Virus record (IMG/VR): IMGVR_UViG_2880395615_000009
Span: 1-46,666 of that record
Direction: 5' to 3' (one strand)
Length of the DNA stretch: 46,666 bases
Source: a virus
Taxonomy: Duplodnaviria; Heunggongvirae; Uroviricota; Caudoviricetes
Shown here piece after piece: positions 34,530 to 36,467 of this stretch. How positions within the stretch are numbered: position 1 is the first letter of the stretch; every line of letters begins with the position of its first letter. The notes under the pieces are model-generated. The model was given only the letters and a program-made list of their open reading frames with translations, was not told the origin of the DNA and searched no databases. A program made the translations under genes and the position numbers.

Positions 34530-34808
34530 TTACCTCCAGATCCGTTGCTGGAATGTGCGGGACGGACGCGGTGGGCGTTCGGAGTAAGGAAGCCTGACGG
34601 AGATTATCCAGTGACGGTAGTCGAGGCTGAGGGCTTTCTTAATCTCGTATCCGCGCCTGCGGTAACACTGAATCAGCCATTCAGCCTGTTCTTCGGTGCA
34701 GGGGTCGTGCTGATACCAGTCAGATTTGAATGCATGAGAACGCCGCCCGTGCCTGCTGGCAGGGGCGGCAGAGTTATCCGAATTGTAAAATTTGGTATCG
34801 TGCGCCAT
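34530..34808 (-). CDS. Hypothetical protein (Rem-position small protein)
   Basis: ORF between the DUF968 gene and hokD, the position occupied by rem in Qin; start uncertain. Confidence 0.4.
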   Translation of the reverse strand: MAHDTKFYNSDNSAAPASRHGRRSHAFKSDWYQHDPCTEEQAEWLIQCYRRRGYEIKKALSLDYRHWIISVRLPYSERPPRPSRTFQQRIWR

Positions 34809-34975
34809 CTGTTTTCTCTGCTGGCGCAGCAGGTGCCAGTTGTTCAGGCTGACGGATGGATTGTAAACCAGAACGACCAGAAAAAACAAAACCCGCCGAA
34901 GCGGGTTAAGTGCGGGTGCGTTGAGGATGCCTGACACATCAGCGGTGGCGAGGGATTTCTCCCCCGCCTGGTCTC

Positions 34976-35131
34976 TTACTCCTCAGGTTCGTAAGCTGTG
35001 AAGACAGCGACCTCCGTCTGGCCGGTTCGGATTCGTACCTCGCAGAGGTCTTTCCTCGTTACCAGTGCCGTCACTATGACGGTTAAACAGATGACGATCA
35101 GGGCGATTAACATCGCCTTTTGCTGCTTCAT
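34976..35131 (-). CDS. hokD: Hok/Gef-family type I toxin HokD (RelF)
   Basis: MKQQKAMLIALIVICLTVIVTALVTRKDLCEVRIRTGQTEVAVFTAYEPEE matches HokD/RelF as remembered; the listed ORF has an in-frame 19-codon upstream extension. Confidence 0.85.
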   Translation of the reverse strand: MKQQKAMLIALIVICLTVIVTALVTRKDLCEVRIRTGQTEVAVFTAYEPEE

Positions 35132-35597
35132 AGCCTGCTTCTCCTTGCCTTTCGGCACGTAAGAGGCTAACCTACATTTGTGAGACATAGATTGGGCCTC
35201 AGATTAATGTTAAGCGTCTTGCAGGACGCGTAATGTTAACTGGGGCTTTTCTCTATCTGCCTTTTGGTGTTCATGCCTGAGGCAGATAGCCTCAAGCACC
35301 CGCAGCAATTCTACTTAACTCTCGCTTTACCGCAAACCGTTTTTACCCGATATGGGAATTCCCATATCGTAATGAATTCAGTTCCCTAGTCGATCCATCA
35401 AAAACACAACCAGGCAGTAAACGCCCACAACAGCAACAACAGCCAGCGCACCTTCCATTGCCAGTGATATATCATCCGACATATTCCCTCCTTTGGTGTT
35501 AATCCCGGCGAACGTTTTTACCCCCACCGACAAATAACATATACTAAAAAAGCGATAGCCATAGCAACGCCTGTAATTGCAAATGCTTCAGGCCAGT

Positions 35598-36467
35598 TCA
35601 TTGGCGCACCTCCTGCGGCGGTTCTGGTAGAGGCATCCAGTGTGATGGTATCCACGACGCACCAGGTATTATCCACCCATCATTAGCGTCAGGATGCCCC
35701 GGGATGTAAGTCGCCCATTTCATTCGCCAGTCACCTTTCCTGCCAAAATCCCTGGCAACAAGAACGGCTGTTTTGGTATCCGGCATTCGCTCACTACAGC
35801 TTATCCAACTATCCGGAGTTACCGGATAGTTGCCCGATAGTGCATTCTGCTCCAGTGATGCTTTTACAAACCACGCTGCCTGAACTATAACGCCATGAAT
35901 CCAGCGCAAATCAGCATCGCGATCTTTCTTTTTCATCTTTTCGCCACTTAAGGCCTTGCTTATGTGGCTGCGTACCAGGTCTTCATGTAATTCCTTCGCC
36001 TCCTCAATGGTGAAACCACCAGGCAGAAGAGCCGGAGTTACCGGAGAGCTGGTTGACGCTTCCGGGATTTTCCGAAAATTATTGGTTGACGAATCTTTAT
36101 TTTCCCGAAAGTTTCCGGACTGAAGCATGGCTTCGCGGCAATCGTTCCAGCCTGTAGCGTATGCAGTCGCTTTGCTGCTGCCTTCAACTGGCGCATCCTG
36201 CCAATACATTTCTTCCGGCACTATCGGCGCTGGAGGGGCGGCAAATAGATATCCGCCAAAGTCAGGAAGCTCTCTAATGGCCTGTACGAATTTTTGTTTG
36301 CCTACGTCAACCCCTAATGGGTAATGAGCTATAATCTTTGCCACCGGCTCTGCTTCCAGCGATGCCAGCGCAATCCGTGCCAGTTCCATTTGTTCACCAC
36401 GGGTAAGCCCGTTTTCAAGCGGATTTTTAATGAACAATTCAATACGTTCTTTGGTAATAGTGGTCAT
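35598..36467 (-). CDS. DUF551-domain protein
   Basis: C-terminal segment ...DSWISCSERMPDTKTAVLV...GWIIPG...WMPLPEPP resembles DUF551 proteins of lambdoid nin regions. Confidence 0.55.
   Translation of the reverse strand: MTTITKERIELFIKNPLENGLTRGEQMELARIALASLEAEPVAKIIAHYPLGVDVGKQKFVQAIRELPDFGGYLFAAPPAPIVPEEMYWQDAPVEGSSKATAYATGWNDCREAMLQSGNFRENKDSSTNNFRKIPEASTSSPVTPALLPGGFTIEEAKELHEDLVRSHISKALSGEKMKKKDRDADLRWIHGVIVQAAWFVKASLEQNALSGNYPVTPDSWISCSERMPDTKTAVLVARDFGRKGDWRMKWATYIPGHPDANDGWIIPGASWIPSHWMPLPEPPQEVRQ

What the first reader, a model, noticed from the sequence alone, without database searches (positions are those of the whole stretch)
34976..35600. Orphan hokD toxin gene without relBE and with a structured upstream region
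HokD is intact, but the approximately 460 bp upstream has no relE/relB. It contains only two very short hydrophobic ORFs (35399..35497 and 35517..35600, minus strand) and inverted repeats (CTATCTGCC/GGCAGATAG at 35251..35291; TGAGGC/GCCTCA hairpin). In K-12 as I recall it, hokD is the third gene of relBEF; here it appears uncoupled, which raises the question of what controls it (an unannotated Sok-like antisense RNA, or nothing).
Basis: partly seen in the sequence, partly recalled or inferred. Interest (0 to 1): 0.45.

Follow-up and report, generated by a model that had tools for sequence, protein, structure and literature searches.

The report
Complete hok/mok/sok prophage toxin–antitoxin locus
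This is an ordinary, complete hok/mok/sok toxin–antitoxin cassette in a lambda-like prophage of E. coli O55:H7; the K-12 copy fused to relBE is the rearranged exception, so the hok gene here is not an orphan.

Summary
The sequence facts hold. An intact hokD ORF lies at 34976..35131 on the minus strand. No relB or relE occurs anywhere in the window. The inverted repeats and two tiny hydrophobic ORFs are there.

The roughly 175 nt upstream of hok is the canonical hok mRNA leader. Rfam RF01794 matches it at 121.7 bits against a gathering score of 59. Every regulatory element of the plasmid R1 hok/sok model can be placed:
- an in-frame mok ORF, with its Shine-Dalgarno predicted to pair with the ucb box;
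- 5' tac and 3' fbi fold-back pairing, which covaries across hok loci;
- an antisense Sok gene with its own promoter and terminator hairpin.

The locus is about 94% identical to hokW/mokW/sokW of phage 933W/Sp5, which has been shown experimentally to work. All regulatory boxes are identical between the two.

K-12 hokD loses homology about 15 nt upstream of its ATG, where the relBE cassette replaces the leader. Among 5426 complete E. coli genomes, 4297 carry the full leader–hok arrangement and 1173 carry the K-12 relE–hokD junction.

Verdict: already known, low interest. Sok and mok are simply not annotated in the RefSeq record.

The parts
34883..35301 (-). Predicted full-length hok mRNA, about 419 nt. 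The 5' end is inferred from position 1 of the Rfam model and the 3' end from the intrinsic terminator.
   Evidence: Rfam RF01794 model position 1 aligns at 35301. The terminator is at 34907..34890 followed by a T-run. MFE is -169.9 kcal/mol, z = -6.6.
35330..35335 (-). hok promoter -35 hexamer, TTGCGG (inferred).
   Evidence: It lies 16 nt upstream of the -10 hexamer and is identical in 933W.
35308..35313 (-). hok promoter -10 hexamer, TAGAAT, 6 nt before +1.
   Evidence: A TAnnAT hexamer sits at the same distance from +1 in all 8 hok loci compared, although the sequence further upstream is unrelated.
35290..35301 (-). tac (translational activator) element, GGGUGCUUGAGG, at the mRNA 5' end.
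   Evidence: It pairs with fbi in the MFE of the full-length RNA. It also pairs with 35273..35282 in the nascent-transcript hairpin and can pair with ucb in 3'-trimmed RNA.
35273..35282 (-). Partner of tac in the 5' metastable hairpin.
   Evidence: Inverted repeat I5. The hairpin folds at -19.2 kcal/mol, z = -5.1. The mechanism follows R1 as described in PMC9841398.
35241..35248 (-). ucb (upstream complementary box, anti-SD), AAAGCCCC region.
   Evidence: It pairs with the mok Shine-Dalgarno region (mRNA positions 101-106) in the full-length MFE. It pairs with tac positions 1-8 when the 3' end is trimmed.
35197..35200 (-). mok Shine-Dalgarno, GAGG.
   Evidence: It lies 9 nt upstream of the mok AUG, the same layout as R1-type loci in the Rfam alignment. 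It is sequestered in the full-length fold.
34976..35188 (-). mok ORF, 70 aa, in frame with hok (hok plus a 19-aa N-terminal extension).
   Evidence: ORF list. The same layout is annotated as mokW in 933W and as mokC in K-12.
35181..35186 (-). dcb (downstream complementary box), the alternative partner of the mok Shine-Dalgarno.
   Evidence: It pairs with mRNA positions 101-106 in the MFE of the RNA trimmed to 350 nt. Assignment is by analogy with R1 (PMC9841398).
35141..35146 (-). hok Shine-Dalgarno, AAGGAG.
   Evidence: It lies 9 nt upstream of the hok AUG, is conserved in all loci compared, and is paired in the predicted folds.
34976..35131 (-). hok toxin gene (HokD allele, 51 aa).
   Evidence: 100% identical to K-12 HokD. 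Pfam PF01848 at 82.9 bits. PHROG 251 'MokW-like host killing' at E = 2.8e-33.
34947..34968 (-). 3' stem-loop, GGCGGGGGA/UCCCUCGCC, presumed to be the protective end of the processed, active mRNA.
   Evidence: A 9-bp stem in the MFE. The role is inferred from R1 mutational data (PMC9841398).
34914..34926 (-). fbi (fold-back inhibition) element, CCUCAACGCACCC.
   Evidence: It pairs with tac in the MFE. Compensatory changes between tac and fbi are seen in the hokB, R1-type and Atlantibacter loci.
34890..34907 (-). Intrinsic terminator of the hok mRNA.
   Evidence: Terminator scan: 7-bp stem followed by TTGTTTTTTC.
35145..35173 (+). Sok promoter: -35 TTGCCT (35145..35150), 17-nt spacer, -10 TAACCT (35168..35173).
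   Evidence: It aligns column for column with TTGCGC-17-TATCCT of the R1-type locus and with the other hok loci. It is identical in hokW.
35180..35254 (+). Sok antisense RNA, about 70-75 nt: a 5' single-stranded tail complementary to the mok start region, then a long hairpin and a U-run.
   Evidence: Its position matches the annotated sokW and sokC, sokB and sokE, with the 5' end 8 nt inside mok. It folds at -30.7 kcal/mol, z = -5.9.

Best explanation
The region is a complete, canonical hok/mok/sok type I toxin-antitoxin module carried in the nin-like region of a lambdoid prophage of E. coli O55:H7. The following mechanism is taken from the plasmid R1 model and mapped onto this sequence.

1. 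A weak constitutive promoter (-10 TAGAAT) makes a stable mRNA of about 419 nt starting at 35301.
2. While the transcript is being made, its 5' tac element is held in a local hairpin.
3. In the finished transcript, tac pairs with the 3' fbi element. The mok Shine-Dalgarno is then sequestered by ucb, so the RNA is neither translated nor bound by Sok.
4. Slow 3' trimming removes fbi. The 5' end refolds (tac pairs with ucb), which exposes the mok Shine-Dalgarno and the Sok target.
5. As long as the short-lived Sok RNA is made from its own promoter on the + strand (about 35180..35254), it pairs with the mok start region and the duplex is degraded by RNase III.
6. If Sok disappears, through loss of the element, transcription arrest or prophage induction, mok is translated. 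The translationally coupled hok follows, and the 51-aa membrane toxin depolarises or kills the cell.

What is shown here: every sequence and structure element of this model is present and conserved, and relBE is absent. What is inferred: expression, processing, killing and the biological role. The most likely role is help with lysis on prophage induction and/or stabilisation of the prophage, as shown for the 94%-identical hokW-sokW.
For: Leader and toxin.
- Rfam RF01794 matches 35126..35301 over the full model at 121.7 bits against a gathering score of 59, E = 2.3e-27.
- The Hok ORF is 100% identical to HokD and matches Pfam HOK_GEF at 82.9 bits.

Predicted structure.
- The full-length RNA folds with tac (positions 1-12) paired to fbi (376-388) and the mok Shine-Dalgarno paired to ucb, z = -6.6.
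- tac and fbi covary across independent loci: window GGGUGCUUGAGG with CCUCAACGCACCC; hokB GGGUGCCUGAGA with UCUCAUGGCACCC; R1-type GGCGCUUGAGG with CUGAAGCGCC. The fbi partner always lies 47-53 nt after the stop codon.

Sok.
- The Sok promoter hexamers align with those of the R1-type locus and the other loci.
- The Sok hairpin plus U-run has z of about -6.
- The Sok position equals that of the annotated sokW, sokC, sokB and sokE.

Relation to hokW.
- mRNA positions 1-394, from the 5' end to just before the terminator, are about 94% identical to hokW/mokW/sokW of 933W. tac, ucb, both Shine-Dalgarno sequences, both Sok promoter hexamers and fbi are identical.
- hokW-sokW is an experimentally working type I TA that depends on RNase III and Hfq (PMC8621323).

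Relation to K-12.
- K-12 hokD shares homology only from about 15 nt before its ATG and has no leader hit.
- The full leader arrangement is in 4297 of 5426 genomes; the relE-hokD junction is in 1173.

Other published support.
Against: - There are no expression data for this copy.
- The generic sigma-70 scan called neither the hok nor the Sok promoter, because both fall below its threshold of 9 matches out of 12.
- MFE folding of 3'-trimmed RNA gives the open tac:ucb conformation only when trimmed to 350 nt or less, not at the expected processed end of about 355-380 nt. Thermodynamic prediction alone therefore does not reproduce the switch.
- Some wild-type chromosomal hok loci (hokA, hokB, hokC) were reported not to mediate post-segregational killing (summarised in bioRxiv 10.1101/2025.08.07.668861).
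- HokD has Tyr, not Cys, at codon 46. In K-12 that codon is recoded by A-to-I editing in only about 6% of transcripts (PMC12214031).
Confidence: 0.9

Rival explanations
1. The locus is structurally intact but functionally silent. It is a conserved chromosomal or prophage hok/sok copy that makes its RNAs but never releases enough Hok to matter, as was proposed for several chromosomal hok loci.
For: [quoted passage not shown]
- HokD lacks a DNA-encoded Cys46 and is edited at only about 6% in K-12 (PMC12214031).
- The predicted closed fold is very stable, and trimming in silico does not readily open it.
Against: - The near-identical hokW-sokW locus is active and affects phage release (PMC8621323), and all regulatory boxes are identical to it.
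- The HokD coding sequence is toxic when expressed (bioRxiv 10.1101/2025.08.07.668861).
- The whole module, including non-coding elements, is retained in 79% of E. coli genomes, and tac and fbi show compensatory changes. Both argue for selection on function.
Confidence: 0.2
2. Hok here is expressed mainly as part of the prophage early-right operon, by read-through from the upstream DUF551 and small-ORF genes. This would be analogous to co-transcription of hokD with relBE in K-12, with Sok playing at most a minor part.
For: - hok has the same orientation as all neighbouring early genes from cro to Q.
- No strong terminator lies between the upstream genes and hok. There is only a weak terminator-like site inside the 34-aa ORF and a palindrome without a T-run.
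- In K-12, hokD is transcribed from the relB promoter (PMC3598666).
- Mitomycin C raises HokW in Sp5 (PMC8621323).
Against: - The module carries its own conserved -10 hexamer at a fixed distance from a conserved +1 in 8 loci that have unrelated upstream sequence.
- It keeps the tac element, which in the R1 model is described at the 5' end of the mRNA (PMC9841398).
- The same module sits in a different genomic position in 933W.
- Read-through would add to Sok control, not replace it.
Confidence: 0.1
3. This is an orphan toxin with no antitoxin: hok is left uncontrolled after losing relBE.
For: No relB or relE is present in the window, and no sok feature is annotated in RefSeq.
Against: - The complete leader, Sok promoter and Sok terminator hairpin are present.
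- relBE is not the ancestral partner. The relBE cassette replaces the leader in K-12, and the same cassette sits in front of a different hok on Klebsiella and Enterobacter plasmids.
Confidence: 0.02

Closest known systems
hokW/mokW/sokW of Stx2 phage 933W / Sakai prophage Sp5 (AF125520; Takada et al. 2021, PMC8621323)
   Same: It has the same module and the same element order. It is about 94% identical from the promoter to fbi. tac, ucb, the mok and hok Shine-Dalgarno sequences, the Sok promoter hexamers and fbi are identical, and mok is in frame with hok. It is preceded by a DUF551-type gene with an ATGA-coupled 27-aa membrane ORF.
   Different: - Five of about 14 nt in the Sok 5' tail / mok codons 2-3 differ.
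- Hok differs at 4 C-terminal residues (TAYEPEE against VDYESEK).
- The terminator is different.
- The position in the prophage differs: near attR in 933W, between the nin-like genes and DUF968-rusA-Q here.
- An extra 175-bp segment with a 34-aa ORF lies upstream of the module here.
hok/mok/sok (parB) of plasmid R1 and R1-type IncF loci
   Same: All architectural elements are shared: tac, fbi, ucb, dcb, mok, the Sok promoter inside the leader, and a Sok hairpin with a 5' tail. Both match Rfam RF01794: window 121.7 bits, R1-type locus L012 88.9 bits.
   Different: The Hok protein belongs to a different clade; Klebsiella plasmid hoks of that clade share little sequence with hokD. The primary sequences of tac and fbi differ but compensate for each other. 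The window locus has an extra inner hairpin (about 16 nt inserted) in the Sok terminator stem. It is prophage-borne rather than plasmid-borne.
hokD (relF) of the relBEF operon, Qin prophage, E. coli K-12
   Same: The Hok protein is identical (51 of 51 aa). The 3' UTR, including fbi and the terminator, is nearly identical. A DUF968 (ydfU) gene lies downstream, followed by a Q-type antiterminator that is only about 40% identical to K-12 YdfT.
   Different: K-12 lacks everything upstream of the hok Shine-Dalgarno: no hok promoter, tac, ucb, mok start or Sok. It is instead co-transcribed with relBE (PMC3598666). The gene just downstream of hok also differs: rem in K-12, an unrelated 92-aa ORF here.
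hokC/mokC/sokC (gef) of E. coli K-12
   Same: mok is in frame with hok, tac is the same (GGGUGCUUGAGG), sokC is annotated at the equivalent position, and Rfam scores 118.3 bits.
   Different: It is about 65% identical overall. It lies at a chromosomal, non-prophage site, and its 3' UTR is cut by IS186 in K-12.

Membership tests
hok/mok/sok type I toxin-antitoxin (Hok/Gef; Pfam PF01848; Rfam RF01794) | A Hok/Gef-family toxin ORF of about 50 aa with an N-terminal transmembrane helix. | tested here: met
   PF01848 at 82.9 bits against a cut-off of 22. 100% identical to K-12 HokD.
hok/mok/sok type I toxin-antitoxin (Hok/Gef; Pfam PF01848; Rfam RF01794) | A conserved structured 5' leader of the hok mRNA, tested with a covariance model. 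| tested here: met
   RF01794 at 121.7 bits against a gathering score of 59, full model 1-157, E = 2.3e-27. The hit is on the hok sense strand, as in all reference loci.
hok/mok/sok type I toxin-antitoxin (Hok/Gef; Pfam PF01848; Rfam RF01794) | An overlapping mok reading frame that starts upstream of hok and has its own Shine-Dalgarno. | tested here: met
   ORF 34976..35188 with GAGG 9 nt upstream. The layout matches the annotated mokW and mokC.
hok/mok/sok type I toxin-antitoxin (Hok/Gef; Pfam PF01848; Rfam RF01794) | Long-range 5' tac / 3' fbi pairing that closes the full-length mRNA. | tested here: met
   It is present in the MFE. Compensatory changes are seen across the hokB, R1-type and Atlantibacter loci, at a constant distance from the stop codon.
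hok/mok/sok type I toxin-antitoxin (Hok/Gef; Pfam PF01848; Rfam RF01794) | A cis-antisense Sok gene with its own promoter inside the leader, a 5' tail over the mok start, and a terminator hairpin. | tested here: met
   The promoter TTGCCT-17-TAACCT aligns with TTGCGC-17-TATCCT of the R1-type locus. The hairpin plus U-run has z of about -6. The position matches the annotated sokW, sokC, sokB and sokE. Met in sequence only; the RNA itself was not observed.
hok/mok/sok type I toxin-antitoxin (Hok/Gef; Pfam PF01848; Rfam RF01794) | A refolding switch after 3' processing: tac pairs with ucb and the mok Shine-Dalgarno is freed or pairs with dcb. | tested here: inconclusive
   The alternative pairings exist and become the MFE when the RNA is trimmed to 350 nt or less, but not at 355-385 nt. 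MFE prediction is not decisive.
hok/mok/sok type I toxin-antitoxin (Hok/Gef; Pfam PF01848; Rfam RF01794) | Sok-dependent repression, RNase III cleavage of the duplex, and killing when Sok decays. | not testable with these tools
   Shown experimentally only for the homologous hokW-sokW (PMC8621323) and for R1 (PMC9841398).
relBE(F) operon (type II TA with a downstream hok) | relB and relE genes immediately upstream of hok, co-transcribed with it. | tested here: not met
   tblastn with K-12 RelB and RelE finds no significant hit in the whole window. The sequence upstream of hok is the hok leader.

The most novel reading that the evidence does not exclude
The hok module itself offers nothing new. 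The most novel reading not excluded concerns its upstream neighbour, the 175-bp segment at 35349..35523.
- It is bounded by an 11-bp direct repeat.
- It carries a 34-aa hydrophobic ORF with a strong Shine-Dalgarno, plus a perfect 22-bp palindrome abutting the hok promoter.
- It could be a small, independently moving cassette that encodes an uncharacterised membrane peptide, such as a second toxin-like or lysis-modulating peptide, or a protein-binding site that modulates hok transcription.
- It is present in 671 genomes, often more than once, and is tandemly duplicated in some O55:H7 strains.
Probability: 0.08. Interest if true: 0.3.

Novelty: already known. Interest (0 to 1): 0.08.

Why it matters
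The value is mainly for annotation.
- RefSeq labels the gene 'hokD' and omits mok and Sok. A reader who knows K-12 therefore expects relBE and sees an orphan.
- K-12 is the rearranged exception. This prophage copy is the standard self-contained module, so further work on what controls it is not needed.
- Rfam RF01794 ('sok') hits fall on the hok sense strand. The real Sok lies on the opposite strand inside the hit.
- Biologically, the locus is one more of several hok/sok copies in prophages of pathogenic E. coli. By analogy with hokW-sokW, these may aid lysis on induction or stabilise the prophage.

Tried and rejected
tblastn of it against the phage collection found nothing.
- The generic promoter scan did not call the hok or Sok promoters. 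It called two other weak + strand sites at 35458 and 35517 that have no support. I placed the promoters by alignment with other hok loci instead.
- Folding of 3'-truncated mRNA did not cleanly reproduce the open conformation, so I do not claim the switch as shown.
- Two R1-type plasmid loci chosen as references (L009, L010) have IS elements close upstream of hok. L010 gave no Rfam hit and L009 only a sub-threshold one (31.9 bits against 59). I replaced them with L011 and L012.
- The K-12 hokC and hokE 3' UTRs are cut by IS186, so their apparent fbi partners are spurious and were ignored.
- The review PMC2593563 is not held. The primary source, Pedersen & Gerdes 1999, is cited only through PMC12214031 and the 2025 bioRxiv preprint.
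- Sub-threshold Rfam matches in the region are not credible: isrK at 27.2 bits against 50, rsmX, ceN48 and a CRISPR repeat.
Full report
**Where the window comes from.** The stretch 34900..35700 is 100% identical to E. coli O55:H7 strain CB9615 and to other O55:H7 genomes. The RefSeq annotation around it shows a lambdoid prophage. Reading along the minus strand, the genes are a LexA-family (cI-like) repressor, cro/cI-family, ydaT-family, DUF977, DUF4014, DUF551, hokD, DUF968 (ydfU-like), rusA and antiterminator Q. No sok or mok feature is annotated there.

**Checking the observation.**
- The hok ORF at 34976..35131 (-) encodes 51 aa. It is identical to K-12 HokD and matches Pfam HOK_GEF at 82.9 bits.
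- tblastn with K-12 RelB and RelE against the whole window gives nothing significant.
- The two small hydrophobic ORFs exist. One is 35518..35601, 27 aa.
- K-12 does have relB-relE-hokD in the Qin prophage.

The raw observation is therefore confirmed.

**What the upstream region is.** Rfam RF01794 ('sok') matches 35126..35301 on the minus strand over the full model, at 121.7 bits against a gathering score of 59, E = 2.3e-27 (repeated). The hit lies on the hok sense strand and ends at the hok AUG, so in practice the Rfam model describes the hok mRNA leader. The same holds for K-12 hokC, hokB and hokE, whose annotated sokC, sokB and sokE lie on the strand opposite to the Rfam hit.

**Anatomy.** mRNA position n corresponds to window coordinate 35302 - n.

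| Element | Window coordinates | Sequence or note |
|---|---|---|
| hok promoter -35 | 35335..35330 | TTGCGG |
| hok promoter -10 | 35313..35308 | TAGAAT |
| mRNA +1 | 35301 | |
| tac | 35301..35290 | |
| local partner of tac | 35282..35273 | hairpin -19.2 kcal/mol |
| ucb | 35248..35241 | |
| mok Shine-Dalgarno | 35200..35197 | GAGG |
| mok AUG | 35188 | |
| dcb | 35186..35181 | |
| hok Shine-Dalgarno | 35146..35141 | |
| hok | 35131..34976 | |
| 3' stem-loop | 34968..34947 | |
| fbi | 34926..34914 | |
| terminator | 34907..34890 | followed by a T-run |

mok is in frame with hok and 70 aa long, exactly as annotated for mokW in 933W and mokC in K-12.

On the + strand, the Sok promoter TTGCCT-17-TAACCT lies at 35145..35173. 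It drives an RNA of about 75 nt (35180..~35254) with a 14-nt 5' tail over the mok start, one long hairpin and a U-run, z of about -6. Its 5' end is 8 nt inside mok, the same as the annotated sokC and sokW.

**Evidence that these elements are real and not read in.**
1. The MFE of the full-length 419-nt RNA (-169.9 kcal/mol, z = -6.6) pairs positions 1-12 with 376-388 (tac with fbi). It also pairs the mok Shine-Dalgarno with ucb.
2. Across independent loci the tac and fbi sequences change together, and the partner stays 47-53 nt after the stop codon:
   - window and hokW: GGGUGCUUGAGG with CCUCAACGCACCC;
   - hokB: GGGUGCCUGAGA with UCUCAUGGCACCC;
   - R1-type: GGCGCUUGAGG with CUGAAGCGCC;
   - Atlantibacter plasmid: GGCGCUUGAGGC with GCCGCAAGCGCC.
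3. In eight loci whose upstream sequences are unrelated, a TAnnAT hexamer lies at the same distance from the conserved +1. The Sok -35 and -10 hexamers align with TTGCGC and TATCCT of the R1-type locus.
4. Compared with hokW, all these boxes are identical. The differences cluster in the Sok 5' tail / mok codons 2-3, the last hok codons, the 3' stem-loop and the terminator.

The post-processing refolding is only partly reproduced in silico. tac:ucb and SD:dcb become the MFE only for RNAs trimmed to 350 nt or less. I treat that step as inferred from R1 (PMC9841398).

**Relation to K-12 hokD.** A three-way alignment shows the window and 933W hokW collinear from the promoter to fbi. K-12 joins them only from 'CAGGAGAAGCAGGCTATG', about 15 nt before the hok ATG. 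Upstream of that point K-12 has the 3' end of relE and a 71-nt spacer. Ten kilobases of Qin give no RF01794 hit.

Junction-specific searches of 5426 complete E. coli genomes find the leader-hok arrangement in 4297 genomes and the relE-hokD junction in 1173. The published view is the same:
- hokD in K-12 is considered inactivated by genomic rearrangement that removed canonical components (PMC12214031, citing Pedersen & Gerdes 1999);
- it is co-transcribed with relBE (PMC3598666).

So this locus is not a hokD that lost relBE. K-12 has a hokD that lost its leader to relBE.

**Function.** The closest studied relative is hokW-sokW of Sakai prophage Sp5 / 933W. It is a working type I TA whose antitoxin action partly needs RNase III and Hfq. 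Mitomycin C lowers sokW and raises HokW, and deleting the locus halves phage release (PMC8621323). [quoted passage not shown]

I therefore commit to canonical Sok-controlled, mok-coupled Hok expression (confidence 0.9). The likely biological role, which is inferred, is help with lysis on induction and/or stabilisation of the prophage.

The main rival is that the copy is intact but phenotypically silent, as reported for some chromosomal hok loci. I put that at about 0.2. It concerns the phenotype, not the identity of the locus.

**Side observations.**
- *relBE cassette.* The K-12 relBE genes plus the 71-nt spacer are 100% identical to a cassette on a Klebsiella plasmid and about 93% identical to one on an Enterobacter plasmid. 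There the cassette precedes an R1-like hok, and identity stops inside the hok Shine-Dalgarno. Neither plasmid locus has a leader hit. relBE-hok is thus a recurrent leaderless architecture, and K-12 hokD is a mosaic with its crossover at the Shine-Dalgarno.
- *27-aa ORF.* It overlaps the stop codon of the DUF551 gene by ATGA. tblastn finds it in 92 phage records at 55-70% amino-acid identity, including just upstream of hokW.
- *34-aa ORF.* It sits in a 175-bp segment bounded by the 11-bp direct repeat CGTTTTTACCC, and the segment is absent from 933W. The segment occurs in 671 genomes at 1464 places. Against a diverged copy, the ORF shows 6 synonymous and 2 conservative changes. It is tandemly duplicated in O55:H7 TB182A.

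**Verdict.** This is a known kind of system in its usual form. Interest is low. The useful outcome is a corrected reading and a full element map.

Noticed in passing
L001:5276-5873 (K-12 Qin relBE plus spacer) compared with L013:1-500 and L014:1-500 (Klebsiella and Enterobacter plasmids): The K-12 relBE genes and the 71-nt relE-hok spacer are 100% identical to a Klebsiella plasmid cassette and about 93% identical to an Enterobacter one. On the plasmids the cassette precedes an R1-like hok, not hokD, and identity stops inside the hok Shine-Dalgarno (CAGGAGAA). None of these loci has an Rfam sok-leader hit. relBE-hok therefore looks like a recurrent, leaderless hybrid architecture, and K-12 hokD looks like a mosaic formed by a crossover at the Shine-Dalgarno.
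   Followed up: partly
window 35349..35523; ORF 35378..35482 (-); palindrome 35348..35369; direct repeats 35338..35348 and 35513..35523: A 175-bp segment bounded by the 11-bp direct repeat CGTTTTTACCC carries a 34-aa hydrophobic ORF (MSDDISLAMEGALAVVAVVGVYCLVVFLMDRLGN, Shine-Dalgarno AAGGAGGG). It also carries a perfect 22-bp palindrome, CGATATGGGAATTCCCATATCG, next to the hok promoter. The segment is absent from 933W and present in 671 of 5426 E. coli genomes at 1464 places. The ORF shows 6 synonymous and 2 conservative changes against a diverged copy, and it is tandemly duplicated in O55:H7 TB182A. It has no Pfam, PHROG or phage-collection hit.
   Followed up: partly
window 35518..35601 (-): A 27-aa membrane micro-ORF (MNWPEAFAITGVAMAIAFLVYVICRWG) has a start codon that overlaps the stop of the upstream DUF551 gene (ATGA). 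It is not annotated in RefSeq. tblastn finds homologues at 55-70% amino-acid identity in 92 phage records, after DUF551, Ea22 or EaA genes. One is in 933W, with the same ATGA coupling, directly upstream of hokW.
   Followed up: partly
window 35126..35301 (-); L004, L005, L007: Rfam RF01794 is named 'sok antitoxin', but its hits fall on the hok sense strand and span the hok mRNA leader up to the hok AUG. The annotated sokC, sokB and sokE lie on the opposite strand inside the hit. The strand of an RF01794 hit should not be read as the Sok strand.
   Followed up: yes
window mRNA positions 113-124 (35178..35189), compared with L003: Differences between this locus and hokW cluster in the Sok 5' tail / mok codons 2-3, where 5 of about 14 nt differ, while all other regulatory boxes are identical. 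This may make the Sok RNAs of co-resident prophage hok copies partly orthogonal. CB9615 has 4 hok-like places.
   Followed up: no
window 35598..36467 (-): A continuous 289-aa ORF with a C-terminal DUF551 domain is split in RefSeq into a pseudogene fragment and a 112-aa DUF551 protein.
   Followed up: no
window 31339..31505 (-): A match above threshold to the Rfam sRNA family STnc100 (99.6 bits against a gathering score of 47) lies in the region downstream of the Q antiterminator.
   Followed up: no
window 34530..34808 (-): The gene between hok and the DUF968 (ydfU-like) gene is a 92-aa PHROG 1212 protein of unknown function, unrelated to K-12 rem, which occupies that position in Qin.
   Followed up: no
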